From: an uncultured Clostridia bacterium
GTDB taxonomy: Bacteria; Bacillota; Clostridia; Oscillospirales; CAG-272
Direction of reading: 5' to 3'
DNA: 64,000 bases
Assembly (NCBI GenBank): GCA_945929845.1
Contig: CAMEON010000002.1
Coordinates: 443-64,442, forward strand
Numbering within the stretch: the stretch's first letter is position 1; every line of letters begins with the position of its first letter. The translations under genes and the position numbers were made by a program. The notes under the pieces were generated by a model that had not been told where the DNA came from, did not search any database, and saw nothing but the letters and a program-made list of their open reading frames with translations. Positions 4,799 through 61,291 of this stretch are shown here, in pieces.

Positions 4799-4900
4799 GG
4801 CACAAGTCAGCCGGGGAAAGGAGTTGCCTCCGTACTGCTGCGTCACGCATCTGTACGCTTGGGGCATCTCCCTTCCCCGGCTTTCTATTTGCTTTGCTTT

Positions 4901-6823: not shown

Positions 6824-6846
6824 GCTGGATGCCTCCCCCGTTATTG

Positions 6847-7773: not shown

Positions 7774-7848
7774 GGTCAGCTTCCTTTCCCCGGGTCTTCC
7801 CCGGATATACATATGCGGGGGACTTTCCATGAGAAAGCCCCCCTTCGC

Positions 7849-10263
7849 TTATGAAAGCGTAGCAAGGAATCGCTTGATCTCCGGCAGACCGACATACTTC
7901 TCGGTCTCTCCGTTCTTCTCTATGACCAGCGTTGGTGCCTGACGGACGCCGTAGCTCTTCGCCAGATCCATATGCTCATTGGCATACACCTTTTCATACC
8001 CGAAGCCCATCTTATCCATGGCGGATGCGGCGATCTTGCAGTTGGGGCAGGTGGGCGTGGCGAACAGGTATACCACGGCATCCTTCCCTGTCTGAGTAGC
8101 CGCCTCCGCTACCGACTCCATCTGCTCCCGGGCAGAGCAGGGACAGGTGTCAACAAACTCGGGAAGCGGGCCTTTATGGGTCAGCACGGAACGGGCGGTG
8201 TCGTAGGTCTTTCTGTCCTTGAACTCCTGGGCCTTGCCGTCGTTCCAGTTCTGCACCGTGCGGTAGTACCCGGTGATGCGGCTGTACACCTCTGCCGGCT
8301 CTCCGCAGTGAGGGCAGGTGTGCTGTTCCCCGGGCAGATACCCGTGGGTACGGCATACCGAGTAGGTGGGAGACAGGGTGTAGTAGGGCAGGCGGTAATT
8401 CTCTGCGATCTTGCGCACCAGGTTGGCCGCGGCCTTCCAGTCGGGCAGCTTCTCCCCTAAGAAGGCATGGAACACGGTACCGGAGGTGTACAGGGTCTGA
8501 AGCTCGTCCTGCACATCCAGGGCGGTGAAAATATCATCGGTGTACCCCACAGGCAGGTGGGAGGAGTTGGTGTAGTAGGGCGTATCGCTCGCAGTCTTTG
8601 CGGCAGTGATGATGTCGGGATACTGTTCCTTGTCGTGCCGGGCCAGGCGGTAGGCGGTGGACTCGGCGGGGGTGGCCTCCAGGTTGTACAGGTCGCCGTA
8701 CATCTCCTGGTAGTCGCTGAGACGCTCACGCATGTGGTCCAGCACCTGCTTGGTGAACTCCTGGCACTTGGGGCTGGTCATGTCAGCCCGGATCCACTTG
8801 GCGTTCAGGCCCGCCTCGTTCATGCCCACAAGGCCGATGGTGGAGAAGTGGTTGTTGAAGGTGCCCAGATACCGCTTGGTGTAGGGGTACAGGCCATTCT
8901 CCAGCAGTTCGGTGATGACATTCCGCTTGACCTTCAGGGAACGGGCGGCGATGTCCATCATGTGATCCAGCCGCTTGTAGAAGTCCGCCTCATCGGTGGC
9001 CAGGTAGGCGATCCGAGGCATATTGATGGTGACCACGCCCACGGAACCGGTGCTCTCGCCGCTTCCGAAGAAGCCACCGGACTTCTTGCGCAGTTCCCGC
9101 AGATCCAGGCGCAGGCGGCAGCACATGGAGCGCACATCGCTGGGTTCCATATCGCTGTTGATATAGTTGGAAAAGTAGGGAGTGCCGTACTTGGAGGTCA
9201 TCTCAAACAGGAGCCGGTTATTCTCGGTGTCAGACCAGTCGAAGCTTCTGGTGATGGAGTAGGTGGGGATGGGGTACTGGAAGCCACGGCCGTTGGCATC
9301 TCCGTCGATCATGGTCTCGATGAAGGCCTTGTTGATGATGTCCATTTCCCGCTGGCAATCCTTGTACTTGAAGTCCATCTCCTTACCGCCCACAATGCAG
9401 TTCTGCTCTGCCAGGTCAGCCGGTACCACCCAGTCCAGGGTGATGTTGGAGAAGGGAGCCTGGGTGCCCCACCGGGAAGGAGTATTGACGCCGTAAATGA
9501 AGGACTCGATGCACTTCTTGACCTGGTCGTAGTTCAGATTGTCCGTCCGGACGAAGGGAGCCAGGTAGGTATCGAAGGAGGAGAACGCCTGGGCACCGGC
9601 CCACTCGTTCTGCATGATGCCCAGGAAGTTCACCATCTGGTTGCACAGGGTGGCCAGGTGCTTGGCCGGGGCGGAGGTGATCTTTCCGGTCACACCGCCA
9701 AGCCCCTCCTGGATCAACTGCTTGAGAGACCAGCCGGCGCAGTAGCCGGTGAGCATGGACAGGTCGTGAATGTGGATGGCGGCGCTGCGGTGAGCGTCGG
9801 CGATCTCCTGATCGTACACCTCAGACAGCCAGTAGTTGGCGGTGATGGCACCGGAGTTGGACAGGATCAGGCCGCCCACCGAGTAGGTGACCGTGGAGTT
9901 CTCCTTGACTCGCCAGTCGTTGACCTTCAGGTAATTGTCCACGATCTTCTTGTAGTCCAGAAGGGTGGTGCTGGCATTGCGCACCCGCTCCCTCTGCTTA
10001 CGGTAGAGGATGTAGGCTTTGGCCACATCGTCATACCCGGCTTTGATCAGGACGGACTCCACGCTGTCCTGGATATCCTCCACGGTGATCCTCCCGTCCT
10101 TGATCTTGGGCTGAAACTCCGCCGTGACCTTCAGAGCCAGGAAATCCAGCGTGTCCTGATTATAGTTCAACTCGCAGGCATCAAAAGCCTTTTTGATGGC
10201 ATTTTCAATCTTTTGCAGATTGAAGTCAACCACTTTTCCGTCGCGCTTTACCACAGTGTACAT
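7849..10263 (-). CDS. nrdD: Anaerobic (class III) ribonucleoside-triphosphate reductase with a fused C-terminal thioredoxin-fold domain
   Basis: N-terminal ATP-cone (MYTVVKRDGKVVDFNLQKIENAIKKAF), finger-loop SMCCRLRLD, Zn site CPHCG, glycyl-radical motif SRITGYYR. An extra ~80 aa follow, with VVYLFATPTCPNCKIAASAM...APTLVIEKNGE (CxxC Trx fold). Confidence 0.9.
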   Translation of the reverse strand: MYTVVKRDGKVVDFNLQKIENAIKKAFDACELNYNQDTLDFLALKVTAEFQPKIKDGRITVEDIQDSVESVLIKAGYDDVAKAYILYRKQRERVRNASTTLLDYKKIVDNYLKVNDWRVKENSTVTYSVGGLILSNSGAITANYWLSEVYDQEIADAHRSAAIHIHDLSMLTGYCAGWSLKQLIQEGLGGVTGKITSAPAKHLATLCNQMVNFLGIMQNEWAGAQAFSSFDTYLAPFVRTDNLNYDQVKKCIESFIYGVNTPSRWGTQAPFSNITLDWVVPADLAEQNCIVGGKEMDFKYKDCQREMDIINKAFIETMIDGDANGRGFQYPIPTYSITRSFDWSDTENNRLLFEMTSKYGTPYFSNYINSDMEPSDVRSMCCRLRLDLRELRKKSGGFFGSGESTGSVGVVTINMPRIAYLATDEADFYKRLDHMMDIAARSLKVKRNVITELLENGLYPYTKRYLGTFNNHFSTIGLVGMNEAGLNAKWIRADMTSPKCQEFTKQVLDHMRERLSDYQEMYGDLYNLEATPAESTAYRLARHDKEQYPDIITAAKTASDTPYYTNSSHLPVGYTDDIFTALDVQDELQTLYTSGTVFHAFLGEKLPDWKAAANLVRKIAENYRLPYYTLSPTYSVCRTHGYLPGEQHTCPHCGEPAEVYSRITGYYRTVQNWNDGKAQEFKDRKTYDTARSVLTHKGPLPEFVDTCPCSAREQMESVAEAATQTGKDAVVYLFATPTCPNCKIAASAMDKMGFGYEKVYANEHMDLAKSYGVRQAPTLVIEKNGETEKYVGLPEIKRFLATLS

Positions 10264-13742: not shown

Positions 13743-13779
13743 GATGTAATTCCGAAATGTTTTGAAAGTTCGGAGAGCA

Positions 13780-13815
13780 GGGAGATACGCCGGGGAATAC
13801 GCCGGGAGATACGCC
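13780..13815 (+). repeat. 12-bp tandem triplication GGGRRATACGCC inside the degenerate left arm of MITE-like copy A
   Basis: gggagatacgcc / ggggaatacgcc / gggagatacgcc read directly. The unit corresponds to GGGAGAACGCC of the canonical left arm. Confidence 0.85.
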
Positions 13816-14071
13816 GGGAAAACTTTCTGAAGAAAGTTTCCCCGAACCCCTTCAAAGACTTTCAAAACATGTATTGTATACTGTTCGGAGCATTATTCTG
13901 TCATATTATTGTTGTCGCTTTTCCGGGGAGCCAGCGTTACTGTCGCCCAAAACAGCAGAAACGCCTTCGCGGGGGCCCCTCGCCCCGCTCTACGGCGGAA
14001 AAGGAAGCGTACGGCGGGGGGGAGGTGAACTGTAGCAAAGTTTCCCGAACCCCTTCAAAGATTTTCACAAC
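13816..14071 (+). repeat. MITE-like element copy A (left terminus degenerate, right terminus AGGTGAACTGTAgC at 14023-14036) plus a 35-bp partial second left arm
   Basis: Aligns by eye with copies at 23.7, 45.1 and 61.0 kb from the hairpin (13816-13843) through ...gccccgctctacggcggaaaagg... to the terminus. 14037-14071 repeats the hairpin 3' arm and the CCCTTCAAAGAxTTTCA box. Confidence 0.7.
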
Positions 14072-14087
14072 AGATGTTCATTGGTCA

Positions 14088-19542: not shown

Positions 19543-19627
19543 GTACTGGCACCTATACGGTATGCCGGGGTCTATTGGCTCCGGTATACCGACTGTTGTA
19601 TGAGAATCATGTGGAAACACCTTTCCG

Positions 19628-19671
19628 CAGAGCAGGAAGCACCACGAGCCATGCTTCCTGCTCTGATTTTT
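19628..19671 (+). terminator. Intrinsic terminator after the 17.1-19.5 kb lipoprotein gene
   Basis: 14-bp stem CAGAGCAGGAAGCA/TGCTTCCTGCTCTG, 10-nt loop, then ATTTTT. Confidence 0.8.
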
Positions 19672-19798
19672 GACATACCCTCCGCCATGGATCGGCGAAG
19701 AATAAAATTTTTCGCAAAAAATTTCAAAAGTATTGGAATTTCCGCACCCGTTTCCGTATAGATGGGTGAAGGCCCTTCAGAGAGGAGAAAGTATCAGA

Positions 19799-20341
19799 AT
19801 GGAAGATAACGAGATACTCGATCTGTTTTTCAGCCGTGATGAGAAAGCCATCCGTGAGTCCGAGATCAAGTACGGTTCCTTCTGCATGAGCATCGCCCGG
19901 GGCATCCTGGGTTCAGATGCGGAGGCGGAGGAATGTGTCAACGATACCTGGCTCAAGGCATGGAACTCCATCCCACCGCAGAACCCACCGAATTTCCGGA
20001 TGTGGCTCGGAAAAGTCATACGCAACCTGGCACTGGACAGGTACCGGTATCACCGAGCTGCGAAACGGAACCGGGACTTTGCAGTGTCGCTTGAGGAACT
20101 GGCTGACTGCATCCCCATACAGGAGGAGGATGCGGGGAATCTGACAGAACTGCTCAATCAATTCCTGCACGGGTTGAAGCTACGGGATCAACAGCTGTTC
20201 GTAGGCCGATACTGGTATAACTACTCATTGGAAAAGCTGTCCAATGGGTATGGTATGCCCGTCAGCACGGTCAGCCACCGTCTCAGCCGCACCCGGGACA
20301 AGCTGAAACAATTTCTTGAAAAGGAGGGGTACTCATTATGA
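19799..20341 (+). CDS. ECF-type sigma-70 family RNA polymerase sigma factor
   Basis: ~180 aa with region 2 (CVNDTWLKAWNSI) and region 4 (YSLEKLSNGYGMPVSTVSHRLSRTRDKLKQFL). GAGGAG lies 11 nt before the ATG at 19799. Confidence 0.85.
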   Translation: MEDNEILDLFFSRDEKAIRESEIKYGSFCMSIARGILGSDAEAEECVNDTWLKAWNSIPPQNPPNFRMWLGKVIRNLALDRYRYHRAAKRNRDFAVSLEELADCIPIQEEDAGNLTELLNQFLHGLKLRDQQLFVGRYWYNYSLEKLSNGYGMPVSTVSHRLSRTRDKLKQFLEKEGYSL

Positions 20342-21600
20342 AAGGTATGACCGTTATGAAGCAGTTGAACGGGATCGATGATATACTGATCCAGAATGCC
20401 TACTTACCGGACACCGTCCCGGACGGGAAATGGGTCAAGGCTCCCCGGCGGGAGCGGGTAGCGGCGGTCATGTCATCCGGCTGGATGGTGGCTTGTATCT
20501 GCGCCGTGGTCAGCATCGGCGTATATGTCAGTGTCCTTGGCTGGAATCTGGGATGGTTCAGCCCCGCCGGCGCACCGCCGGAAACAGAGCCGGGGATCAT
20601 CTATGAGTCAAATACGGAGGAAGCCATCACGGAGGCTGTCACGGAAGCGGCCAATTACTCCACCGGGTTGTCCTACATCAAGGTGGATGGCGGGTTTTCC
20701 GTCAATGGCATGGGCAGTTGTACGGATCGTGATGTGATCATTCCCTCGGAATACCTGGGAGACCCGGTGATCGCCGTGGCGGAAATGGCATTCTATCAGA
20801 ATCAGAACATCCGCTCGGTGGTTCTGCCAGACAGCGTCACAGACATCGGCGAACATGCCTTCGATTCCTGTCAGAATCTGAGTTCCGTCCGCCTGCCGGA
20901 GAACCATAACACAATAATCAGAGCCGGTGCTTTCAAATCCTGCGTCTCTCTCACAGAGATTTACCTACAGGACGGCACAGACCTGGAGTGGGGTGCCTTT
21001 GAAGGGGCTACTTCCCTTTCGTCTGTCCGGTTGCCCAGCGACTTGACGAGCATTGCCGGGCGTCTTTTCCAGGACTGCACCTCCTTGGCTTCCATTGAAC
21101 TTCCGGACACGCTGGAATCCATCGGTAGGGAAGCCTTTCAAAAGTGCACCGCACTGAAAGAGATACAGTTTCCGGAATCGCTTCGCTCCATCAGCGACTA
21201 CGCCTTTGAGCAGTGCGGGTTGGATCTGGAAGCCGTCCGCATTCCGGATAGTGTTGAGTATATCGGTGAGGTGGTTTTTCAAGCGATTGGTGCAATTCCC
21301 GGATTGACTTTCTATCCGGACGGCACCATCCTCGAAGAGAATGGAGAGCCGATGAAGACCTATGAGTGCTATGTGGACAACTGCCTGATCTATCTCTACA
21401 CCACCAATCCCTCCTACACAGTACGGGAGGGTACCCGCCTGATCGCAAGTGGTGCGTTGGATCTTTACTCGTATATAGGCATACGGGAAATGGACATTTA
21501 CCTGCCGGATTCACTGGAATACCTGTGTGAGAATTGGATCTGCTCCACCTACCGGATCCACGGTGAGTATACCCACATCCCCGTGACAAGTGCCTCGTAA
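20338..21600 (+). CDS. Single-pass membrane protein with an extracellular BspA-type leucine-rich-repeat domain; candidate anti-sigma factor
   Basis: Its ATG overlaps the sigma gene stop (ATGA at 20338-20341). N-terminal GIDDILIQNAY, one TM (WMVACICAVVSIGVYVSVLGW), then LRR_5-like repeats (IPDSVxxIGxxAFxxCxxLxSVxLP). Confidence 0.6.
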   Translation: MKGMTVMKQLNGIDDILIQNAYLPDTVPDGKWVKAPRRERVAAVMSSGWMVACICAVVSIGVYVSVLGWNLGWFSPAGAPPETEPGIIYESNTEEAITEAVTEAANYSTGLSYIKVDGGFSVNGMGSCTDRDVIIPSEYLGDPVIAVAEMAFYQNQNIRSVVLPDSVTDIGEHAFDSCQNLSSVRLPENHNTIIRAGAFKSCVSLTEIYLQDGTDLEWGAFEGATSLSSVRLPSDLTSIAGRLFQDCTSLASIELPDTLESIGREAFQKCTALKEIQFPESLRSISDYAFEQCGLDLEAVRIPDSVEYIGEVVFQAIGAIPGLTFYPDGTILEENGEPMKTYECYVDNCLIYLYTTNPSYTVREGTRLIASGALDLYSYIGIREMDIYLPDSLEYLCENWICSTYRIHGEYTHIPVTSAS

Positions 21601-21635
21601 AGCACAAACAATCTGTTGTTGAAAGGAATCCATAA

Positions 21636-23585
21636 ATGAAGAATAAAACATTTCTCGCCGCCCTCATCCTGATCACAGCTTTTCTGACAGGCATGACGGT
21701 TTCCTGCGGTGTCCCCAGATCCTCCGGGCAACAACCCGCCGACAGCCAACCACCTCTGGAAACAGTTGATACAGACAACATACAGGAAGAAACCGTACCG
21801 GAAACTGATGCGCGTACAGACCCCCCCTGCGCACACGGACACACTTTTGATACTGAAATCAGCCGGGTGTTCAATCCTACCTGCTTCCGGGACGGGGCTG
21901 CGATCTATAAGTGTTCCGTATGCCACACGCAAAAGGAATTAGTCATTCCGGCACTGACTCATGAATTTCAGGACGGATACTGCATTCATTGCGGCTTGAA
22001 CCAAGGTGCGGAGACCCGCTTCACTTACCGATACAACCAAAGCACCAATTCGTATATCCTGGACTTGCCTAAAGAAGACGCACCGGGGGAGCCATGGGAT
22101 ACAAAGGAAACCATCATTCTGCCTACGGTTGGGCAGGATGAAGACCATGGCGTTCGGCCTGTGACCGGGTTTATCCGTCTGTTTGCCAACAACACGACCA
22201 TTCAGAAAGTGATCATTCCGGAAGGCTACACCACAATCGGGAAGAATGCTTTTTCCGGTAATTGCACGCTCGATCTGTCGTCCATTCAGTTTCCCTCCAC
22301 TCTGAATACAATCTGTGACTACGCCTTCTGTGAAAGGAAGGATATGACGGAGATCACGATACCGGACACGATAACCACCATCGGAGATCATACATTTAGC
22401 GGTTGTACCAATCTCTCAAAAATCACCTTCCCTGACGGTTTGACCGATATCGGGGAGTATGCGTTCACTGACTGTACCTCTCTCACAGAAATCATTCTTC
22501 CGGATTCCCTGGCCCACATCCGTTCCGGTGCATTCTCCCGTACAGGGCTTACCTCCATAGAGATCCCAGCGGGAGTGCACAGTCTCAATTCCTCCCTGTT
22601 TTGGGGATGTAACCAATTGACATCCGTCAAAATACCGGACACCGTGACATTCATCGGCCAGTACTGTTTTACCGGAACCAACATTCCCGAGTTGACCCTT
22701 CCTTCCAGTCTGACCCGTATGGCTGCCCATGCGATTGTTTCATGTAATGTACGGAAGATCGTATTCAAGGACGGCTTGACTAAACTTGACGATTCCATCC
22801 ATGATTGTCCCGAGCTTGAAACCGTCGTCCTTCCGCAAACGCTTACAACCATGAGTGCGGGGGAATTCAGTGGATGCCCGAATCTGAAGAGTATCAACTT
22901 CCCTGCTTCCTTCCAAAGGGTTCCTGAAACGTTACTCACGGGCTGTACAAAATTAACCGAGATCCTGGTCGATCCGGACAATCCGTGTCTGGAGAACAGG
23001 GACGGTCTGATCATCTGGACGGAGAAACACCGGCTCATGTGTATCACCGCCCGTGAGGAACTGATCATCCCGGACGATGGCAGTGTCACGGAGATCGCCA
23101 CAGATGCCTGCCGGAACAGCAATCTTGTACGGGTGGTCATCCCCGGAACTGTAGATAAAATTTACTATAATGCTTTCTATAACTGCCGTGCTCTGGAATC
23201 CGTGGAGATCGGTGAGGGTGTCCGCTTCTTTGGTAACTATTCCTTTGCAAATTGTACTTCACTGACTTCATTCACTTTCCCCAAGTCTGCCACCTCTGTG
23301 GGGGCGTTTGTACTCGGGTATTGCACAGCGTTGCAGGAAGTCACCATCCCCCGGCGATTCAACAGGATCCCGAGATATGACAATTTTGAATCTCACAGTG
23401 CGCTTTTCTGCGGCTGTACCTCCCTGCAGTCTGTGTACTATGACGGAACCGTGCACGATTGGATCATACGGGTAAAGCCGAACATCCTGGAATGCGGAGT
23501 CCAGGCCGGGGATTATATCGTGTACTGCACAGACGGTGAGTACGATTACCACCACACCCAGGAATGGCTGGATGAGCATACATGA
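21636..23585 (+). CDS. Lipoprotein with a Cys-rich module and more than 10 BspA-type leucine-rich repeats
   Basis: MKNKTFLAALILITAFLTGMTVSCG lipobox. CAHGH...CSVCH...CIHCG zinc-ribbon-like region. Repeated IPxxVTxIGxxAFxxCTxLTxI units. Confidence 0.7.
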   Translation: MKNKTFLAALILITAFLTGMTVSCGVPRSSGQQPADSQPPLETVDTDNIQEETVPETDARTDPPCAHGHTFDTEISRVFNPTCFRDGAAIYKCSVCHTQKELVIPALTHEFQDGYCIHCGLNQGAETRFTYRYNQSTNSYILDLPKEDAPGEPWDTKETIILPTVGQDEDHGVRPVTGFIRLFANNTTIQKVIIPEGYTTIGKNAFSGNCTLDLSSIQFPSTLNTICDYAFCERKDMTEITIPDTITTIGDHTFSGCTNLSKITFPDGLTDIGEYAFTDCTSLTEIILPDSLAHIRSGAFSRTGLTSIEIPAGVHSLNSSLFWGCNQLTSVKIPDTVTFIGQYCFTGTNIPELTLPSSLTRMAAHAIVSCNVRKIVFKDGLTKLDDSIHDCPELETVVLPQTLTTMSAGEFSGCPNLKSINFPASFQRVPETLLTGCTKLTEILVDPDNPCLENRDGLIIWTEKHRLMCITAREELIIPDDGSVTEIATDACRNSNLVRVVIPGTVDKIYYNAFYNCRALESVEIGEGVRFFGNYSFANCTSLTSFTFPKSATSVGAFVLGYCTALQEVTIPRRFNRIPRYDNFESHSALFCGCTSLQSVYYDGTVHDWIIRVKPNILECGVQAGDYIVYCTDGEYDYHHTQEWLDEHT

Positions 23586-23616
23586 ATCCGTGACTGTTCC
23601 TTTTGGGGATGCGCCG

Positions 23617-23647
23617 GGGCCTTCTTTCGGGAAGGCCCTGACTTTTT
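23617..23647 (+). terminator. Intrinsic terminator after the LRR lipoprotein gene
   Basis: GGGCCTTC-tttcgg-GAAGGCCC then TGACTTTTT. Confidence 0.65.
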
Positions 23648-23687
23648 CATCATTTGTTGAATCGTTGTTCCATAAATTTACTCCGGC

Positions 23688-23934
23688 GTTACAGTTCACC
23701 TCCCCCCACAGTACGCTCTCTTTTCTGCCGTAGAGCGGGGCGAGGGGCCCCCGCGATGGCGTTTCTGCTGTTTTGGACGACAGTAACGCTGGCTCCCCGG
23801 AAAAGTGATAATAAAAATATGACAGAATAATACTCCGAACAGTACACAATACATGTTTTGAAAGTTCTTGGGGGTCTGGGCCCTTCTTTCAAGAAGGGCC
23901 CAGGCGTTCCCCCGTCCCCCGCCTGAACTGTAAC
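23688..23934 (-). mobile_element. MITE-like element, full-length copy B (247 bp, inverted orientation)
   Basis: Termini gttacagttcacc... and ...cctgaactgtaac (11-bp TIR GTTACAGTTCA). Internal hairpin gggcccttctttcaagaagggccc at 23878-23901. No ORF. Intergenic. Confidence 0.6.
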
Positions 23935-37406: not shown

Positions 37407-37614
37407 GATCCATTTTCTCCTTATTTTCCCAACGGCATATCCCCGTGTGACAGTATGCGCAGACAATTACCATCCTATTATACACGCATCCTGTCAGTTT
37501 GTCAAGTATTTTGTAGAATCAGACGCCGCTTTGCGGGGATAGAGGACAGCAAGGCGGCTATGGAATAGCCGTATAATTCCATGTTTCATAAGATTCTTTG
37601 CCCCATCCCCCCGA

Positions 37615-37655
37615 CCCCCTTCCCCGCTGGGGAAGGGGGAGAATCTTTATTTTTT
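37615..37655 (+). terminator. Orphan intrinsic-terminator-like hairpin with no upstream plus-strand gene
   Basis: Perfect 11-bp stem CCCCCTTCCCC/GGGGAAGGGGG (37615-37639), then AGAATCTTTATTTTTT. Confidence 0.45.
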
Positions 37656-37952
37656 CTGCAAGGGGCCTGCGGCCCCTTGCATCCCTGCCTATTTCGCCAG
37701 ACGCCAGCTGTGCTGACCGGATGCAGGATAACGCTGGGCGTATTTGCAGAGGTACCTGGGACGGCAGTCCCCGGCGAAAAAATCCCCATACCCCTTTCCC
37801 TGTCGAGGAAGGGGGTATGGAATAGGGCAAAGCCCGGGTTTTGCCTGGGGCGTAAATCGATATGGGACAGTAAATCACACATATATGTCGTGGTCAAGCA
37901 CCTGAGCTGTTGCCATGAAACCGCACTGAAAAGAAATTTTCGCAGAATATGT

Positions 37953-37981
37953 TTGACATTTTGAAAGAATTATGGTATAAT
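37953..37981 (+). promoter_or_regulatory. Consensus extended -10 promoter TTGACA-17-TATAAT for the ADP-ribosylglycohydrolase gene
   Basis: ttgacattttgaaagaattatggtataat (TGgTATAAT). Confidence 0.7.
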
Positions 37982-38109
37982 ATGTGTAGTAAGTATGAAC
38001 AGGTCATATCCATGGCCGACACACGGAAGGATGTACCTGTACCGCAAGGATGACACTGCTGACCCGGAAAGTGTATTTCATGTACATGAATACGAAACGG
38101 AGGTTTACT

Positions 38110-38934
38110 ATGCTGGGAGCCATACTGGGAGACATCATCGGCTCGATCTACGAGTATCAGCCGATCAAGACCAAGGATTTTGAGCTATTGACAACGGACA
38201 ATCACCCGACAGACGACACCATCATGACGGTAGCCGTGGGTCTTGTCACCGCCTCCCGTGAGCATCACGAGGAGGAAGAGTACAAGCGAAATCTGGTCAA
38301 GTTCATGCGGCTTCTCGGGAAGGAATTTCCGGATGCAGGCTACGGTATGCGCTTTTCCCGTTGGCTGTGCGCCGAGGACTCTGCTTCTTACCACAGCTAT
38401 GGCAACGGCTCAGCTATGCGGGTCTCTCCGGTCGGATGGTTTGCAAGCTCATTGGCGGAAGCCGAGCAGTTGGCGCGATGGAGTGCCGAGGTAACACACG
38501 ATCACCCGGACGGTGTGCGGGGGGCGCAAGCGGTGGCCGCCGCCATCTATATGGCAAGGACAGCCAAGGACATCGGTCGCATCCGGGGCTATATCTCCTC
38601 CTACTATTTCCCACTGGACTTCCGTCTGAATAAGATCCGCCCGTCCTACAGCTATGATGAAACCAGCACGGGGAGTGTGCCCCAGGCCATTGAGTGCTTC
38701 CTGGAGTCCAGCTCCTACGAGGATGCTGTCCGCAATGCAGTCTCCCTTGGCGGCGATGCAGACACCCAGGCGTGTATTGCCGGATCCATTGCCGAGGCAT
38801 ACTATGGCATTCCTGCGCCGTTGCAAAAGGCGGCTATGACTTACATGGATCAGCGCCTGACCCGCCTGTTCCTGGCCTATGCCACAAGATTGTACCAAAG
38901 GGCCAGACAGGCAGCAGGAGCGAAGGAGGGCTGA
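38110..38934 (+). CDS. ADP-ribosylglycohydrolase family protein
   Basis: MLGAILGDIIGSIYE...TDDTIMT...GNGSAMRVSPVG...GGDADTQACIAGSIAEAYYG are family signature stretches. GGAGG lies 6 nt before the ATG at 38110. Confidence 0.85.
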   Translation: MLGAILGDIIGSIYEYQPIKTKDFELLTTDNHPTDDTIMTVAVGLVTASREHHEEEEYKRNLVKFMRLLGKEFPDAGYGMRFSRWLCAEDSASYHSYGNGSAMRVSPVGWFASSLAEAEQLARWSAEVTHDHPDGVRGAQAVAAAIYMARTAKDIGRIRGYISSYYFPLDFRLNKIRPSYSYDETSTGSVPQAIECFLESSSYEDAVRNAVSLGGDADTQACIAGSIAEAYYGIPAPLQKAAMTYMDQRLTRLFLAYATRLYQRARQAAGAKEG

Positions 38935-38977
38935 CCCCTGCGACCAGGGAAGGCAGCTTCCCAGGTAGGTACAGGAA

Positions 38978-39949
38978 TCAGCTTCTCTGTTCATCACCAA
39001 GGCAGTACACAGTGCCGACGGACAGTACATTATTGCCGTAGCCGATATACACCCGTTGCCAGGTCTCCCAGGTGCCCTCATAGCAGATGCGCACCTGCCC
39101 GGTCACGCCATAAAAAGCCATTTCCGCAATCGCCTGCACGGTGAGGGGTACCGTGACGGAGAGGTCATTCCGTGCCGGGGGACAGCAAAGCAGGACGGTG
39201 CAAGCCTTATCATACAGTATGCCCCCCACAGATCGGAAGATAGGGTTGTCTGCCTCCACCGAAAGGTAGGCCAGACGGGGGCAGGCGGCAAAGGCCAGTG
39301 TGCCGATCTTTTCCACGCTGGCGGGAATGTATACCGCCGAGAGCACGCCGCACCCGTAAAAGGCCTTTTCCGCTATGGCGGTGACAGGCCACCCCTCCGG
39401 ACTGACGGCGGGGATGATCAGGCAGGTGTCTGTACAGCTTCCCATGCCGGTCAGTATACAGCTCCCGTCCTCCTGTAGCCGGAAGGAAAGACCCTGGGAA
39501 GCGGGCGGCGCACCCTGCCAGATACCGCCCGGCTGGGTGTCTGTCTCCGTATCTGCGGGTGGCTCCGTGGAAGGCTCCTCGGTGTCGGCAGGCGGATCCG
39601 TCTGCTCCGGAAGGCTTTCAAGAGAGAGCGTTTCCAGAATCTCCAGGGGATCGTCGGAATCGGCACAGGAAATCGCATCGGTGACGGATGGCTCTTTCCG
39701 CCCGGTGTCCTCCTCTCCCGCATCGGCTTCCGGCGTGGTATCCGTGCCCTCGGCGGCCTCTGCGCCTGCGTATGTAACCTCCCCGGTTCCCTCGGCCGAC
39801 CCGGAAGGAGGTACGGACTTGGCGTTTTGTGTGCCTACGCAGATAAGCAGCATCACACTGAGGATCAGGGCGACCACAAAAAGGGCCGCCGCCGTCCGCC
39901 GCAAAATGACAATGTCCCTGTCGATCTTTTTGATGTCCCATTTTTTCAT
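38978..39949 (-). CDS. Membrane-anchored BspA-type LRR surface protein
   Basis: MKKWDIKKIDRDIVILRRTAAALFVVALILSVMLLICVG anchor, acidic T/E/P linker, then GMGSCTDTCLIIPAVSPEGWPVTAIAEKAFYGC... LRR_5 repeats. Start taken at 39949. Confidence 0.65.
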   Translation of the reverse strand: MKKWDIKKIDRDIVILRRTAAALFVVALILSVMLLICVGTQNAKSVPPSGSAEGTGEVTYAGAEAAEGTDTTPEADAGEEDTGRKEPSVTDAISCADSDDPLEILETLSLESLPEQTDPPADTEEPSTEPPADTETDTQPGGIWQGAPPASQGLSFRLQEDGSCILTGMGSCTDTCLIIPAVSPEGWPVTAIAEKAFYGCGVLSAVYIPASVEKIGTLAFAACPRLAYLSVEADNPIFRSVGGILYDKACTVLLCCPPARNDLSVTVPLTVQAIAEMAFYGVTGQVRICYEGTWETWQRVYIGYGNNVLSVGTVYCLGDEQRS

Positions 39950-40236
39950 ATGTATCTGTGTACCGCCCTTCTGCGGACAAGTTGGCTGTCCGCAAAAGGC
40001 AGTATAGCAAAAAAGACTTGCCGGGTCAAGAAAATTCCTTCGACCGTAAAGGAGCCGGCAACTCATATTTTACCACTGTTTTACATTCTTTCTGCTATAG
40101 GGAGAGGCAAAACAGGAGCTTCTGTCATCTCCGGTCGAAGGGTTTTTCACACCGGATACGCATATTTCAGAAAAGGAACCGGGAGTCAGCCCACAGGGTG
40201 CTCCCGGTTCCATGTTTTCGTATTGGATTCTTCAGG

Positions 40237-42081
40237 TTACTTTATACCGCGAAGGGAGACGATGGCATCGATCAGGTCGGAGTAGGCCTTTTCCTCGAAG
40301 GGGGAGGAAATGCCTGCCCGCTCCAGCGTGCCGAGGAAGGTATCACTCTCGCCCACGGTGCAGATGTTCAGGTAAGCGGCTGTGGCTGTCTCATAATTCT
40401 CCAAGGACATGCAGTACAGGTCAATGGAGGGAAGCAGGGACATGGCGTAGCTGATATAGTAGCCCGGGTTGTCAACCACCACATAGTGCCAGTAGGATAC
40501 GGGGTCTGCGTACAGCTCAACGAACAGATCATAAATGCCCAACTCCTTCATGATGTCAGTCATCACGCCGTCCAGATCCCCGGCCTGGTAGTCGTCGTGG
40601 GTGTACGCATACATCTCAAACTCGTTGACAGCCAGGCAATTGCAGATACTGCTCAGGTCAGAGAACAATTTGTAGTACACCAGGAGCTTATAGCTCTCTG
40701 CGGACATATACCCCTTGAGGTTAGCCGTATACAGCCACTCATTCCCCTGGGAATGCACCTCTGCAAGATCCATGGGAATATCCATGGTTCCGGACTGGGA
40801 CATAGCATAGCAGTGGCCAAACTCATGAATGACAGTGTAGGTGCTCTGATAACCCGGGCCGAAGTAGAAGAGCGGGTAGCCCAGCTTATCAAAATATACA
40901 GAGAAGGCACCTTCCCGGCTGATTTCCGCATTGTTGGCCAGAATGAAATGGTTTTCCGTCCACATGGAGTGGTATGCGGCATTCACACCTTCCCCGAGAG
41001 AATTGAGATATTCCTCCACGGACTTCTTTATTGCCGCATTCCCGTCGCCCAATGTGTCCACCACACCGAGGTAGGAAAGGTCGGAGGTCATATAGGTGAT
41101 AAAGGCACGGTAATCCTCCGTCGGCATTTTTTCCATCATGGAGCTGATCTGGTTCCACAGCAGATTCAGTTGGGGCACAATGTACTTCTTGACATACGCC
41201 TTCATCTGCTCCACATCGGCGGGGGTATAGTCCCGGTCGTACCCCAAGCTGTACGCATAGGTCATGTAGTCCTCATATCCGCAAAGGGTGGCTATCTGCT
41301 TGTTGATTTTCACAGCACGCATATAGATCTCTGCGGTTGCGGCCATATAGGTATCATCCTGGGGAAGCTTGTAATACTCCATCTTCAGCTCGTCATAGGA
41401 CACCCGGAGCTGTTTCAGTTCGTCGGTATAAGTCCCGGCCATGGCTACCGCCTGCTTGCGCTCTTCCTCAGTCCATCCCTCGAAGAAAGCATCGGCGTAT
41501 ACGGATGCATCAATGTCATCGTACAGCATGATGAGGTGTTGCAGGACATCGTTGTACATCTGACTGACGGATTCGAAGCAGGCAGACTTGTCCTCATCAC
41601 CTGCATAGACCATGCTGAGGACATTGGCGATCAGGTACTGATCCGTCAGAACAGCAAAATCCTCCTCCTCGACCTCAGAATAGAGGGTCAGGAACTCCTC
41701 CTGCTTTTCCGGGTCATTGTCCGAAAGCAGGGCTGTCAGGGTATCCACCTTCCCATTGAGTGCGGCGTATGCCTCATCGCTATAGGTATACACAATGTCC
41801 GGGTTGCGGCAGATGATGTCATTCGGACCGGCGGTGACAGGCTCCGGGGCGGTGGTATCCGCTTCTGTTTTCTCCTGAACCGTTTGTTCCGGTTCTGTGT
41901 CTGTGGCCTGCTCCGGGGTCTCGGTGGGAGTGGCGCTTCCTTCTGTGTCTGTGGCTACCGTGACTGTGGTATCGTCCTCCGGGCCGCCCTTCTCCTTGCA
42001 AGAGGCAATACAGAAAAGGGATGCCATCAGGATCAGAACCATCATGGTTGCAAGCAAAAGCCGTTGTGCCTTAGTGCTCAT
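40237..42081 (-). CDS. Lipoprotein zinc metallopeptidase, M3 (oligoendopeptidase F-like) candidate
   Basis: MSTKAQRLLLATMMVLILMASLFCIASC lipobox, T/E/P linker, HEFGH zinc motif (YTVIHEFGHCYAM). Confidence 0.55.
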   Translation of the reverse strand: MSTKAQRLLLATMMVLILMASLFCIASCKEKGGPEDDTTVTVATDTEGSATPTETPEQATDTEPEQTVQEKTEADTTAPEPVTAGPNDIICRNPDIVYTYSDEAYAALNGKVDTLTALLSDNDPEKQEEFLTLYSEVEEEDFAVLTDQYLIANVLSMVYAGDEDKSACFESVSQMYNDVLQHLIMLYDDIDASVYADAFFEGWTEEERKQAVAMAGTYTDELKQLRVSYDELKMEYYKLPQDDTYMAATAEIYMRAVKINKQIATLCGYEDYMTYAYSLGYDRDYTPADVEQMKAYVKKYIVPQLNLLWNQISSMMEKMPTEDYRAFITYMTSDLSYLGVVDTLGDGNAAIKKSVEEYLNSLGEGVNAAYHSMWTENHFILANNAEISREGAFSVYFDKLGYPLFYFGPGYQSTYTVIHEFGHCYAMSQSGTMDIPMDLAEVHSQGNEWLYTANLKGYMSAESYKLLVYYKLFSDLSSICNCLAVNEFEMYAYTHDDYQAGDLDGVMTDIMKELGIYDLFVELYADPVSYWHYVVVDNPGYYISYAMSLLPSIDLYCMSLENYETATAAYLNICTVGESDTFLGTLERAGISSPFEEKAYSDLIDAIVSLRGIK

Positions 42082-42183
42082 TGGTCATATATCCTCCTAA
42101 AAAAAACTGTTCTTATTATAACACATATACCCGATGAAGTCAATACAGGCAGGAAATATATTTCTGTTGCGGTTTACCTGTTT

Positions 42184-42205
42184 GTTACAGTTCTCCCGTC
42201 CCCCG
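42184..42205 (-). repeat. Solo terminus-like fragment of the MITE-like family
   Basis: gttacagttctcccgtcccccg: 10/11 match to the TIR followed by a G/C-rich subterminal stretch like the right end of the other copies. No further similarity. Confidence 0.35.
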
Positions 42206-42253
42206 GCTGACATGTAAGCAGAAATGCAACACCCAGGAATCCGAAAAAACACC

Positions 42254-44972: not shown

Positions 44973-44991
44973 ATGCTCATTGCACCTTATT

Positions 44992-45020
44992 ATTATATCA
45001 TGCTTTCCCGGTTTTGTCAA
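44992..45020 (-). promoter_or_regulatory. Consensus promoter TTGACA-17-TATAAT for tRNA-Lys
   Basis: The minus strand reads TTGACAAAACCGGGAAAGCATGATATAAT, about 20 nt upstream of the tRNA 5' end. A-tract-rich upstream region. Confidence 0.75.
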
Positions 45021-45060
45021 GCCGTTTTTTCAGCTTTTTTCATTTTTAGTGCCGGGTAGG

Positions 45061-45309
45061 GTTACAGTTCAGGTAGGGTACGGGAGAACGCCTGGGGGCT
45101 TCTTGGAAGAAGCCCCCAGACCCCCAAGAACTTTCAAAATGTGTATAAGTTCATGTTCGATGCATCGTTTGATAGTATTTTTGTCATCATTGTTCCAGAG
45201 GAGCCAGCGTAACTGTCGCCCAAAATAGCAAAAACGCCTTCGCGGGGACCCCTCGCCCCGCTCTACGGCGGAAAAGGGAGCGTACTGCGGGAGGTAGGTG
45301 AACTGTAAC
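45061..45309 (+). mobile_element. MITE-like element, full-length copy C1 (249 bp)
   Basis: gttacagttcaggtagggtacggg ... gaggtaggtgaactgtaac. Hairpin at 45094-45117. Flanked by CGGGTAGG on both sides. Confidence 0.6.
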
Positions 45310-45318
45310 CGGGTAGGG

Positions 45319-45439
45319 GTTACAGTTCAGCCGGCACCCAAAACAACAGAAACGCCATCGTTAGGCTTTGCTCTTACCCCTCGCCCCGCTCTACGGCGGA
45401 AAAGTGAGCACACTGCGGAAGGAATAGGTGAACTGTAAT
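45319..45439 (+). repeat. MITE-like short derivative C2 (121 bp, internal deletion, both termini kept), head-to-tail with C1
   Basis: gttacagttcagccggc...cccctcgccccgctctacggcggaaaagtgagcacactgcggaaggaataggtgaactgtaat. Confidence 0.65.
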
Positions 45440-45469
45440 GCAGTTCATACTTATAAACCGAGCTTTCAG

Positions 45470-45540
45470 GCAAAAACAAACATCCGGGGGCGGACAGTCT
45501 GAAGTCTCTGCATGAGAGACGACCGACTGTTCACCCCCGG
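45470..45540 (-). terminator. Compound hairpin terminator after pfkA
   Basis: The minus strand has CCGGGGGTGAACAGTC ... GACTGTCCGCCCCCGG with an inner GTCTCT/AGAGAC hairpin, followed by ATGTTTGTTTTTG. Confidence 0.6.
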
Positions 45541-45581
45541 GGGTCATTCAAAGGTTCCTTAAGCCTGCTTGGATGTGACCG

Positions 45582-46694: not shown

Positions 46695-46756
46695 AAATAT
46701 GAACCTCCTGCCGACAGTGCGGCCTGTAATGAATTTTCGCTTGCTGGTACTGCCCA

Positions 46757-46812
46757 GTCATTGACTGTCATTGACTGTCATTGACTGTCATTGACTGTCA
46801 TTGACTGTCATT
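46757..46812. repeat. 10-bp tandem repeat (GTCATTGACT) x5.6 spanning the cinA stop codon and the region upstream of pfkA
   Basis: Read directly: five perfect units and one partial. Each junction forms TGACnGTCA. Confidence 0.95.
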
Positions 46813-48111
46813 ATCCGGCATGACCTCCCGGATGGCCTCCAGAAAAGCCCGGGAAGCGGCGGCCCGTCGGATATAGTCCCGTGTCTTCCCGGCGGCATAG
46901 GACAGCTTCAGGGTGCGGACACCGTGGTCGGACGCAATGCCCACGAACACGGTGCCCACCGGGTGCTCCGGTGTGCCTCCGCCAGGGCCGGCATAGCCGG
47001 TGGTGGACAGAGCCAGGTCAGTGTGGCAGACTCGACGGACACCCACAGCCATTTCGGCGGCAGTCTCGGCAGACACCTCCGTGTATCGGTCGATGGTGGC
47101 TTGGCTGACGCCCAACTGCTCTACCTTCATCCGGTTGGTGTAGGTGATGCACCCACCGGCAAATACTGCTGACGCACCGGGTACTGAGGTGATGCGCTCG
47201 CCCAGCATCCCGCCGGTGCAGGATTCGGCACAGGCAATCGTCAGCCCCAGCCGGGTCAGGGTCTGTACCAGCGCACTTTCCACATTCTCCACATCTACGC
47301 CGTAAATAAAGGGGCCAACCTCACTGCTCTGCACGGCTTCCACCAACCTGTCGCACAGAGCCGTGGCCTGCGCTTCACTGTCCGCCCGGGCAGTCACCCG
47401 TAGCCTGACCTCCCCCTCCTTGCAGTAGGGAGCCAGCGTCGGATTGGTGGAGGACACCATCAGGTCACAGAGCTTAGCCTCCACATCCGCCTCCCCCATG
47501 CCCATAATATGAATATTCCGGCTGATCAGGACACCGTCCGTGAACTGTGACAGCCAGGGCCTCACCTGCCTGTCAAACAGCGGCTCCAGCTCGGAGGGCG
47601 GGCCGGGTAGCAGGATGGCTGTCCGTTCCCCATCGCTGACGGCCAAGGCCGGGGCCGTGCCGTAGTCGTTGGGGAAGACCACCGCCCCCTGTGGCATCAT
47701 TGCCTGCTTCTCATTGTTACAGGACATACAGCGACCCAGCTTCCCAAAGTAGGACTTGATGCGGGCGAGGGACTCCGCATGGAGCATCATGTCCCGGCCG
47801 AAGAAGGAGGCCACTGTTTCCTTGGTCAGGTCATCATAGGTGGGGCCAAGTCCCCCGGAGAGAATGACCAACTGAGCCGCCGGGCGGCCGTGTCCGGCGT
47901 AGGCTTCCTCCAGTGCCTGGGTCAGGCGGCCGGGATGATCCCCCACCACAGCCTGATGGTATACGCTGATCCCCATCCCCGCCAGGCGGCGGGAGAGGAA
48001 GGCGGCATTGGTGTTGACGATGTCCCCCAGCAACAGCTCCGTGCCGACACAGAGGATCTCCGCTGTGCGGATGGGAGCGGCGGGGGTGGTTTTCGGTTTG
48101 GCGTTTTCCAT
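46798..48111 (-). CDS. cinA: CinA family protein (MoCF-binding domain plus NMN amidohydrolase PncC-like domain)
   Basis: TAEILCVGTELLLGDIVNTNAAFLSRRL... N-terminal domain and C-terminal ESCTGGMLG...GPGGGT motifs. Confidence 0.85.
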   Translation of the reverse strand: MENAKPKTTPAAPIRTAEILCVGTELLLGDIVNTNAAFLSRRLAGMGISVYHQAVVGDHPGRLTQALEEAYAGHGRPAAQLVILSGGLGPTYDDLTKETVASFFGRDMMLHAESLARIKSYFGKLGRCMSCNNEKQAMMPQGAVVFPNDYGTAPALAVSDGERTAILLPGPPSELEPLFDRQVRPWLSQFTDGVLISRNIHIMGMGEADVEAKLCDLMVSSTNPTLAPYCKEGEVRLRVTARADSEAQATALCDRLVEAVQSSEVGPFIYGVDVENVESALVQTLTRLGLTIACAESCTGGMLGERITSVPGASAVFAGGCITYTNRMKVEQLGVSQATIDRYTEVSAETAAEMAVGVRRVCHTDLALSTTGYAGPGGGTPEHPVGTVFVGIASDHGVRTLKLSYAAGKTRDYIRRAAASRAFLEAIREVMPDNDSQ

Positions 48112-51367: not shown

Positions 51368-51480
51368 GTTACAGTTCACCTACTCCCCCACAATGCGTTC
51401 CCTTTTCCGCCGTAGAGCACGGGCATCGAATGTGAATATAAACCTGTTTGAAAGTTCTTGAGGGGTGTCTGATCTGTAAC
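51368..51480 (-). repeat. MITE-like short derivative E (113 bp, both termini kept, inverted orientation)
   Basis: gttacagttcacctactccccc...ttttccgccgtagagc...gtttgaaagttcttgaggggtgtctgatctgtaac. Confidence 0.65.
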
Positions 51481-57375: not shown

Positions 57376-57434
57376 GGAATACGCTTGAGGAACTTCCTTA
57401 AAGAAGTTCCCCACCGTATTCCTCGTTCGTAAAA

Positions 57435-61006: not shown

Positions 61007-61254
61007 GTTACAGTTCAGGTAGGGTACGGGGGAACGCCTGGGGGCTTCTTGAAAGAAGCCCCCAGACCCCCAAGAACTTTCAAAACAGGTATTGTGAATG
61101 ATTCGGAGCGTTATTCTGTCATATATTTGCTGTCGTTTTCCCGGAGGAGCCAGCGTTACTGATACCCGAAATAGCAAAAACGCCTTCGCGGGGACCCCTC
61201 GCCCCGCTCTACGGTGGAAAAGGGAGCGAACTGCGGGGGCAGGTGAACCGTAAC
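61007..61254 (+). mobile_element. MITE-like element, full-length copy D (248 bp)
   Basis: gttacagttcaggtagggtacggggg ... ggcaggtgaaccgtaac. Hairpin at 61040-61063. Flanks AGGAAATA / AGGAAGTA. Confidence 0.6.
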
Positions 61255-61263
61255 AGGAAGTAG

Positions 61264-61291
61264 GTTACAGTTCAGGTGGGGGACAGGGGAT
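61264..61291 (+). repeat. Solo left terminus of the MITE-like family directly after copy D
   Basis: gttacagttcaggtgggggacaggggat matches the first ~28 nt of the left arm (compare gttacagttcaggcgggggacggggga in copy B). Confidence 0.55.

What the first reader, a model, noticed from the sequence alone, without database searches (positions are those of the whole stretch)
45061..45309. Unannotated ~248-bp MITE-like element family with GTTACAGTTCA terminal inverted repeats
SEEN: three full-length copies (23688-23934 inverted, 45061-45309, 61007-61254; 247-249 bp) align by eye over their whole length. They start GTTACAGTTCAGG and end AGGTGAAC(T/C)GTAAC, giving an 11-bp TIR. Two short derivatives (45319-45439, 51368-51480), a left-degenerate copy (13816-14036) and solo termini (42184, 61264) also occur. 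All are intergenic, none carries a credible ORF, and no transposase gene is in the window. INFERENCE: this is a non-autonomous transposable element (MITE) or a structured repeat with a cellular function. Eight occurrences in 64 kb is a high density. I do not recognise the TIR or the conserved core (...CGCGGGGACCCCTCGCCCCGCTCTACGGCGGAAAAGGGAGCG...) as any named element or RNA family.
Basis: partly seen in the sequence, partly recalled or inferred. Interest (0 to 1): 0.7.

Follow-up and report, generated by a model that had tools for sequence, protein, structure and literature searches.

The report
New MITE family in gut Clostridia
The repeats are real: a previously unnamed family of ~250-bp non-coding mobile elements (MITEs) sits between the genes of an uncultured gut Clostridia bacterium, differs in presence between strains and marks rearrangement breakpoints, which is ordinary transposon biology.

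Summary
The window holds three full copies (247-249 bp), one left-degenerate copy, two internally deleted copies (121 and 113 bp), a 36-bp mini copy and a solo left end. All are intergenic and non-coding, with 11-bp inverted ends GTTACAGTTCA.

It is a MITE family. Four copies have perfect 8-9-bp target-site duplications. Relatives show empty sites or different occupants at the same sites. Deletion derivatives all keep the termini. A second, unrelated organism carries the family. No Rfam, phage or plasmid match was found.

A 2134-bp element with the same perfect termini does encode a transposase of the IS1182 family. That IS is nested inside a MITE, not its parent: it has its own inverted repeats, and relatives end at those repeats with no MITE around them.

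The only candidate parent is a 113-nt contig end in a sister strain. There the same terminus closes an ORF with weak IS66-family C-terminal similarity, which fits the 8-bp duplications. The parent is therefore not established.

Two extra features stand out. New copies land head-to-tail 8-9 bp from resident left ends. An internal perfect palindrome varies only by fully compensated changes.

Verdict: new member of a known kind, modest interest.

The parts
45061..45309 (+). Full-length copy, 249 bp: palindrome allele a, A-type centre
   Evidence: nhmmer E=5.9e-87
45053..45060 (.). Left copy of the 8-bp target-site duplication CGGGTAGG; the right copy is at 45310-45317
   Evidence: 8/8 identical
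45319..45439 (+). 121-bp internal-deletion derivative (left TIR joined to model position ~153). It is the resident copy beside which 45061-45309 inserted, with a 9-bp spacer
61007..61254 (+). Full-length copy, 248 bp: palindrome allele b, B-type centre. Flanked by AGGAAATA / AGGAAGTA (7/8)
61264..61290 (+). Solo left end, 9 bp downstream of the preceding copy, arranged head-to-tail
23688..23934 (-). Full-length copy, 247 bp: palindrome allele c. An empty site exists in sister strain L115
13772..14036 (+). Copy whose left TIR is replaced by the 12-nt tandem GATACGCCGGG(A/G) x3. L114 has the intact TIR at the same site
14037..14073 (+). Fragment of an older copy (3' arm of the palindrome plus the CAAAGA(C/T)TTTCA box) into which the 13772-14036 copy appears to have inserted
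   Evidence: (repeat D7, 84%)
51368..51480 (-). 113-bp derivative lacking the palindrome and part of the centre; present in all sister strains examined
42184..42219 (.). 36-bp mini element (both ends, interior deleted). A rearrangement breakpoint: three or four different neighbours in different strains
45092..45119 (.). Perfect palindrome module (13-bp arms). Equivalent modules lie at 61038-61065, 23876-23903 and 13815-13844
45240..45282 (+). Right core TCGCGGGGACCCCTCGCCCCGCTCTACGGCGGAAAAGGGAGCG, the most conserved internal segment (96% against 71-88% for the rest of the interior)

Best explanation
[quoted passage not shown] They are moved in trans by a DDE transposase that binds the 11-bp termini GTTACAGTTCA / TGAACTGTAAC and makes an 8-bp (sometimes 9-bp) staggered cut in the target.

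Shown here: the termini, the target duplications, the insertion polymorphism, the retention of termini in every deletion derivative, and presence in two unrelated genomes.

Inferred: the transposase belongs to an IS66-family element not captured here. This rests on one contig end where the same right-type terminus closes an ORF with weak IS66 C-terminal similarity, and on the 8-bp duplication.

Also inferred: new copies insert preferentially right beside a resident left end, in the same orientation (end-targeting). Once in place, copies act as substrates for homologous recombination, giving deletions between neighbouring copies, gene conversion of modules and an inversion of about 4.3 kb.
For: TIRs: 15 hits against 0.58 expected; left TIR 100% and right TIR 95.5% conserved across 8 copies.

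TSDs: CGGGTAGG 8/8 (window 45061), GAAGGCGG 8/8 (L107), GGTCTGCTT 9/9 (L097 14346), AGGAA[A/G]TA 7/8 (window 61007). ATCATATC 8/8 flanks L131 copy 2.

Empty or filled sites:
- L115 has a single ACATCGTT where the window has copy 23688-23934 between ACTCCGGC and ACTTCGAT.
- The window and L097 lack the two tandem copies that L131 has between the ADP-ribosyl-glycohydrolase and Wzz genes.
- L110 lacks the 248-bp copy at the DHHW site.
- L097 has a full copy where the window has a 36-bp mini.

Deletion derivatives of 35, 36, ~75, 113, 121 and 185 bp all keep both termini.

Contigs from ERZ780157 share no other nucleotide similarity with the window yet carry the family.

There is no coding capacity and no Rfam hit.

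Parent lead: L098 19090-19202 reads GTTACAGTTCACCTCCTGCCCC and continues into an ORF whose stop codon TAA lies inside the TIR. Its last 36 aa hit only PF13817 DDE_Tnp_IS66_C (E=0.0053) and NF033517 transpos_IS66 at profile positions 363-386 of 387 (E=0.075). IS66-family elements make 8-bp duplications (PMC3281130 table 2; PMC11946415).

End-targeting: all four adjacent pairs are right end, 8-9 bp, left end, and the neighbours differ in sequence or length.

Recombination: chimeric single copies with two different crossover points at the PFK site; a different palindrome allele at the same site in L111 versus the window; inversion of window 37902-42221 in L098, L129 and L130, bounded by elements.
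Against: No autonomous element with these termini and an intact matching transposase was recovered. The IS66 hits are below both curated cut-offs and rest on 36 residues from one contig end. No protein in the 5.8-billion-sequence index shared three 5-residue words with that peptide. The TIR (11 bp, GTTACAG...) does not match the usual IS66 description of 20-30 bp starting GTAAGCG (PMC11946415). Several copies have no recognisable duplication (45319, 51368, L108, the L109 shell). The L110 'empty' state is better explained by recombination between 14-nt direct repeats than by an ancestral empty site. The duplication at 23688 is only 5/8. No transposition event has been observed, so current activity is not shown.
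Confidence: 0.82

Rival explanations
1. The MITE is an internal-deletion derivative of the IS1182-family insertion sequence seen in L109, and that IS1182 transposase mobilises it through the outer GTTACAGTTCA ends.
For: L109 845-2978 is a 2134-bp element with perfect outer TIRs. It contains a 526-aa IS1182-family transposase (NF033551, 277.7 bits, cut-off 270). Three related IS copies from three samples all touch MITE sequence.
Against: The 1.9-kb insert has its own 17-18-bp inverted repeats (GGAGCCGTAAAAAAAGTC / GACTTTTTTACGGCTCC) and its own promoter. Relatives with a 78%-identical transposase (10 contigs) end at homologous repeats, have unrelated flanks, and carry no MITE sequence and no GTTACAGTTCA. 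The outer and inner repeats are unrelated in sequence. An experimentally captured IS1182 member made a 4-bp duplication, not 8 bp (PMC3281130 table 2).
Confidence: 0.06
2. The repeats are primarily a functional structured element: a small RNA, a transcription or translation regulator, or a REP-like protein-binding palindrome kept by the host. Any mobility is secondary.
For: Both strands fold better than shuffles (z=-2.9 and -3.7). The palindrome keeps pairing through 8 double-sided changes. A 43-nt right core is 96% conserved.
Against: No Rfam match at E<=1. No promoter or terminator pattern inside the element. Orientation relative to neighbouring genes is inconsistent. Much of the fold energy comes from the TIR pairing and the palindrome. 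The stem has no G-U pair in 74 paired cells, as expected for a DNA palindrome. Copies lacking the palindrome or the core persist. Presence or absence varies between strains with near-identical flanks.
Confidence: 0.07
3. The family is a dead fossil. It transposed long ago, and all present variation comes from recombination, deletion and gene conversion, with no active transposase in these genomes.
For: Copies are 74-86% identical to each other. Many lack a duplication. Several polymorphisms are best explained by recombination. No intact parent was found.
Against: Four perfect 8-9-bp duplications remain. These include private insertions in single lineages (L097 14346, L131 copy 2) next to diverged residents, which argues for comparatively recent events.
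Confidence: 0.25

Closest known systems
Bacterial MITEs in general (example: MITEAba12 of Acinetobacter, PMC6382973)
   Same: Small, non-coding and TIR-bounded, flanked by target-site duplications, multicopy, intergenic, presumed to be mobilised in trans by a co-resident IS, and able to drive rearrangements.
   Different: The TIR and internal sequence match nothing searched (Rfam, phages, plasmids, IMG/VR). The element is not AT-rich (about 55% G+C). It carries a perfect palindrome module with exchangeable alleles and a highly conserved 43-nt right core. The parent IS is not identified, whereas MITEAba12 has ISAba12.
IS66 family insertion sequences
   Same: 8-bp target duplication. A terminus beginning GT.A. 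In L098, an ORF with weak IS66 C-terminal similarity ends inside the same right-type TIR.
   Different: IS66 inverted repeats are described as 20-30 bp starting GTAAGCG (PMC11946415). Here there are only 11 bp of inverted identity, starting GTTACAG. No full IS66-type transposase gene (tnpC, with or without the accessory genes tnpA and tnpB) was recovered.
IS30 IR-targeting (PMC9333248)
   Same: New insertions land directly beside a resident element's end with strict orientation specificity. This gives right-end/left-end junctions separated by a spacer of duplication length.
   Different: The IS30 spacer is 2 bp and the mechanism (copy-out-paste-in through IR-IR junctions) is established experimentally. 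Here the spacer is 8-9 bp, the pattern rests on four junctions, and the transposase family is different and unproven.
IS1182 family insertion sequences
   Same: An IS1182-family element lies inside a MITE copy, so that the composite mimics an autonomous element with the MITE's termini.
   Different: Its own termini (GG[A/G]GC[C/T]GTAAAAAAAGTC) are unrelated to the MITE TIR. Relatives occur without any MITE around them.

Membership tests
MITE (non-autonomous TIR transposon) | Small (about 50-600 bp) and without coding capacity | tested here: met
   Sizes range from 35 to 291 bp. No conserved ORF: translations are interrupted and differ between copies.
MITE (non-autonomous TIR transposon) | Terminal inverted repeats | tested here: met
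   11-bp GTTACAGTTCA / TGAACTGTAAC; 15 hits against 0.58 expected; 95-100% conserved.
MITE (non-autonomous TIR transposon) | Target-site duplication of fixed length | tested here: met
   Perfect 8-bp duplications three times and 9-bp once, plus one 7/8. Older or rearranged copies have lost it.
MITE (non-autonomous TIR transposon) | Multiple dispersed copies with insertion polymorphism (filled versus empty sites) | tested here: met
   9 pieces in 64 kb. Empty sites in L115, and in the window and L097 relative to L131. A second host organism carries the family.
MITE (non-autonomous TIR transposon) | Co-resident autonomous IS with matching TIRs and duplication length | tested here: inconclusive
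   Only a 113-nt IS end in L098 shares the TIR plus about 22 nt.
IS66 family (as parent) | 8-bp direct target repeats | tested here: met
   family value taken from PMC3281130 and PMC11946415.
IS66 family (as parent) | 20-30-bp terminal inverted repeats starting GTAAGCG | tested here: not met
   The TIR is 11 bp and starts GTTACAG, 4 of 7 identical to GTAAGCG.
IS66 family (as parent) | Transposase with IS66 DDE and C-terminal domains next to the terminus | tested here: inconclusive
   PF13817 E=0.0053 (17.4 bits, cut-off 30). NF033517 E=0.075 at the extreme C-terminus of the profile. Only 36 aa are available.
IS1182 family (as parent) | MITE termini homologous to the IS termini | tested here: not met
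   IS ends are GG[A/G]GC[C/T]GTAAAAAAAGTC, against GTTACAGTTCA for the MITE. Relatives carry no MITE sequence.
Any Rfam RNA family | Covariance-model match | tested here: not met
   No match at gathering thresholds or at E<=1 on 44980-45580.
Named element in ISfinder / TnCentral | Sequence match to a catalogued IS or MITE | not testable with these tools
   Those databases are not available here. A full-text search for the TIR found only unrelated primer sequences.

The most novel reading that the evidence does not exclude
The family may be more than a passive MITE in three linked ways. (i) Its transposase practises strict end-targeting: new copies land 8-9 bp upstream of a resident left end in the same orientation, building head-to-tail arrays. 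(ii) Its internal perfect palindrome is a DNA-level module that changes only by fully compensated, allele-like replacement. (iii) That palindrome is the specific landing site, or is replaced by, an IS1182-family element. Together these would make the MITE a nested platform that recruits other mobile DNA and concentrates rearrangement breakpoints next to tRNA genes, a CRISPR array and surface-protein genes.
Probability: 0.3. Interest if true: 0.5.

Novelty: new member of a known kind. Interest (0 to 1): 0.35.

Why it matters
About one element piece per 7 kb in this window would mean hundreds per genome if the window is typical (extrapolation, not measured). In practice the family breaks short-read assemblies of this gut lineage: many contigs end inside a copy. 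It also marks where strains differ by deletion, inversion and gene-block gain. Annotating it would improve MAG assembly and strain comparison. It would also give a handle for finding the responsible transposase. The end-targeted insertion pattern and the palindrome that an IS1182 element replaces are small mechanistic puzzles that could be tested. None of this changes the general picture of bacterial MITEs.

Tried and rejected
1. The single genome-collection scan was wasted. L037 and L038 were checked and are coding sequence.
2. The metagenome scan with the left end gave only 3 contigs, all from ERZ780157. These still supplied a second host and the IS1182 composite.
3. Phage, plasmid and IMG/VR searches with the element, the left end, the right end and the core found nothing.
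4. A full-text search for the TIR found only unrelated primers. A search for MITE literature in these taxa was uninformative.
5. 'L109 is the autonomous parent' was considered and rejected.
6. Attempts to extend the IS66-like end all failed:
- The peptide was too short for the homologue search.
- The same peptide padded with four arbitrary glycines found nothing.
- tblastn against plasmids found nothing.
- Other contigs at that junction showed a CRISPR array instead.
7. The palindrome as an independent dispersed REP-like unit was rejected. Outside MITE copies the window has only one weak match, at 57393.
8. The palindrome as a relic of IS1182 termini: similarity is limited to a G-rich start, so this is not supported.
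9. MITE right part as decayed transposase coding sequence: no open frame and only about 20-30 nt shared with the L098 IS end.

Full report
OBSERVATION. The three full copies read and align as described. They lie at 45061-45309(+), 61007-61254(+) and 23688-23934(-), are 247-249 bp long, and are 82-84% identical to each other. The 11-mer GTTACAGTTCA with at most 1 mismatch occurs 15 times against 0.58 expected.

Three refinements apply. The left-degenerate copy spans 13772-14036; its left TIR has been replaced by a 12-nt tandem repeat, and strain L114 keeps the intact TIR at the same site. The '42184' terminus is a 36-bp mini element with both ends. The 61264 terminus is a solo left end.

All pieces are intergenic. 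No transposase domain was found in the window ORFs tested, nor among the pre-annotated genes of overlapping loci. The window is 57.4% G+C. It comes from an uncultured 'Eubacteriales bacterium' MAG from gut metagenomes.

ANATOMY. From left to right the canonical element has these parts (conservation):
- Left TIR, 100% conserved.
- A G-rich subterminal stretch with short direct repeats (GGTAGGG, GTACGGGG), 81%.
- A perfect palindrome with 12-13-bp arms, 71%.
- A conserved box CAAGAACTTTCAAAA, 89%.
- An AT-rich centre that comes in two types, A and B, 81%.
- A right core TCGCGGGG(A/G)CCCCTCGCCCCGCTCTACGG..GAAAAG..AGCG, 96%.
- Right TIR, 95.5%.

Beyond the 11 bp the two ends are not inverted copies of each other. 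GGTAGG reads in the same direction at both ends.

Modules reassort between copies. Palindrome alleles a, b, c and d combine with centre types A and B in different ways. At one orthologous site the window and L111 carry different palindrome alleles while the right half is identical. This indicates gene conversion.

IT IS MOBILE DNA. Target-site duplications are perfect at four copies:
- CGGGTAGG at window 45061.
- GAAGGCGG at L107.
- GGTCTGCTT (9 bp) at L097 14346.
- ATCATATC at L131 copy 2.
A fifth, at window 61007, is 7/8.

Occupancy differs between relatives:
- L115 has a single ACATCGTT where the window has copy 23688-23934 between diverged 8-mers.
- The window and L097 have no element between the ADP-ribosyl-glycohydrolase and Wzz genes. 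L131, about 91% identical overall, has there a solo end plus two different full copies.
- L097 has a full copy where the window has the 36-bp mini.
- L110 lacks the copy at the DHHW site. That state is better explained by recombination between the 14-nt GTTACAGTTCAGGT repeats, because it carries the left-flank variant of the duplication and lacks the extra G.

Internal-deletion derivatives of 35, 36, ~75, 113, 121 and 185 bp all keep both termini. This is what is expected if only the ends are needed for movement.

Contigs from sample ERZ780157 share nothing else with the window at nucleotide level but carry the family. These properties match the working definition of bacterial MITEs (PMC6382973, introduction).

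NOT AN RNA FAMILY. Rfam gives only two tRNAs at gathering thresholds, and nothing at E<=1 on the densest region. The simple promoter and terminator scan finds nothing inside the element.

Both strands fold better than shuffles, but that is driven by TIR pairing and the palindrome. Across six palindrome alleles, 8 of 13 pairs change on both sides and 94.9% of cells pair. No shuffle of 500 reaches the observed pairing or covariation score, and slid controls are far lower. Not one paired cell is G-U. That points to a DNA-level palindrome, maintained or regenerated as an inverted duplication, rather than an RNA stem. Hairpin-less copies look like deletions within the palindrome; L107 keeps only the 3' arm.

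THE TRAP: A LONGER ELEMENT WITH THE SAME ENDS. L109 holds a 2134-bp element with perfect outer TIRs and a 526-aa IS1182-family transposase. It is not the parent.

The 1.9-kb insert has its own 17-18-bp inverted repeats and its own promoter just upstream of the start codon. Ten contigs with a 78%-identical transposase end at homologous repeats. Their flanks are unrelated, and they carry no MITE sequence and no GTTACAGTTCA. The IS is therefore nested in a MITE.

Curiously, it occupies exactly the position of the palindrome, which is then absent. In three related IS copies from three samples the transposase-upstream end abuts the same MITE position, while the other flank varies. I could not decide between three readings: palindrome-targeted insertion, one old insertion followed by end-adjacent rearrangements, or assembly chimeras.

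CANDIDATE PARENT. In L098 the contig ends 113 nt into a sequence that begins with a right-type terminus (GTTACAGTTCACCTCCTGCCCC). On the other strand it is an open frame ending ...GESWLGDGAGGEL, with the stop codon TAA inside the TIR.

The only family hits for these 36 residues are PF13817 (IS66 C-terminal element, E=0.0053) and NF033517 (IS66 transposase, profile positions 363-386 of 387, E=0.075). Both are below the curated cut-offs. IS66-family elements make 8-bp duplications (PMC3281130 table 2; PMC11946415), which fits. However, their inverted repeats are described as 20-30 bp starting GTAAGCG, which does not fit.

I rate 'IS66-family parent' at roughly 0.5-0.6. Every attempt to extend the fragment failed.

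AFTERLIFE OF COPIES. At the PFK/tRNA-Lys site the window, L098 and L105 have the 121-bp copy plus the full copy. Five other strains have one chimeric copy with two different crossover points, which indicates deletion by recombination between direct repeats. L131 has only a ~75-bp mini there. In L099 and L105 the flanks diverge at, or within 17 nt of, the left terminus.

L098, L129 and L130 carry window 37902-42221 inverted. A 291-bp MITE variant sits at one junction and the mini at the other. Beyond the mini lie, in different strains, tRNA-Leu (window), the IS66-like end (L098) or a type I-E CRISPR array (L129, L130). In L098 the 8-mer AACAGCAG sits next to right-type ends at both junctions, in inverted orientation.

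END-TARGETING. Every adjacent pair is head-to-tail: right end, then 8-9 bp, then left end. The spacer equals the newcomer's duplication plus 0-1 nt. The pairs are:
- 45061 followed by 45319.
- 61007 followed by the solo end at 61264.
- L131 copy 2 followed by copy 1.
- L131 copy 1 followed by a solo end.
The neighbours differ in length or subfamily, so these are not tandem duplications. The closest precedent is IS30 IR-targeting, which also shows strict orientation specificity (PMC9333248). With four junctions this is a lead, not a demonstration.

VERDICT. The finding is real and correctly interpreted. It is a new, unnamed MITE family, and so a new member of a known kind. It has good evidence of past mobility and of ongoing recombination, and an unproven IS66-like parent. 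Interest is modest.

Noticed in passing
L109 1036-2940; L118; L132 184-2082: An IS1182-family IS (526-aa transposase, own TIR GG[A/G]GCCGTAAAAAAAGTC) sits exactly where the MITE palindrome normally is. The palindrome is then absent. One IS end abuts the same MITE position in three samples, while the other flank varies.
   Followed up: partly
L098 19090-19202: The contig ends inside a putative IS whose right terminus equals the MITE right-type TIR. Its ORF (weak IS66 C-terminal similarity) has its stop codon inside the TIR.
   Followed up: partly
window 37902-42221 (versus L098 14768-19086, L129, L130): A block of about 4.3 kb (614-aa protein, LRR protein, ADP-ribosylglycohydrolase) is inverted in some strains. 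MITE pieces lie at both junctions.
   Followed up: partly
L129 about 4070-7800; L130 1-1000: A type I-E CRISPR-Cas locus whose array (repeat CTTTTCCCCGCACACGCGGGGGTGATCC) ends about 100 bp from the mini element. This neighbourhood is absent from the window.
   Followed up: no
window about 19560-23660: A strain-specific block encoding an ECF-type sigma factor and two BspA-type LRR proteins. It is absent in L114 and L115 and borders the MITE copy at 23688-23934.
   Followed up: partly
window 46747-46826: A tandem array of the 10-mer GTCATTGACT, 6-8 units, in the 103-bp gap between the CinA-like gene and the phosphofructokinase start. Function unknown.
   Followed up: no
window 13783-13826 (versus L115 about 9650-9690): The 12-nt tandem GATACGCCGGG(A/G) that replaces the left TIR has 3 units in the window and 2 in L115, so copy number varies.
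   Followed up: no
L098 14560-14640 (also L129 12174-12464 and L130): A 291-bp MITE variant carries an extra perfect palindrome (GGAAGTTTGCC-TAAC-GGCAAACTTCC) inserted inside the usual palindrome module.
   Followed up: no
window 37560-37790 versus L131 13330-13500: A hairpin-rich segment of about 260 bp upstream of the Wzz gene is in opposite orientation in the window and L097 compared with L131.
   Followed up: no
L108 11817-13415: A large serine recombinase (Resolvase, Recombinase, Zn-ribbon and DUF4368 domains) lies on the contig of the second host organism. This suggests an integrative element near its MITE copy.
   Followed up: no
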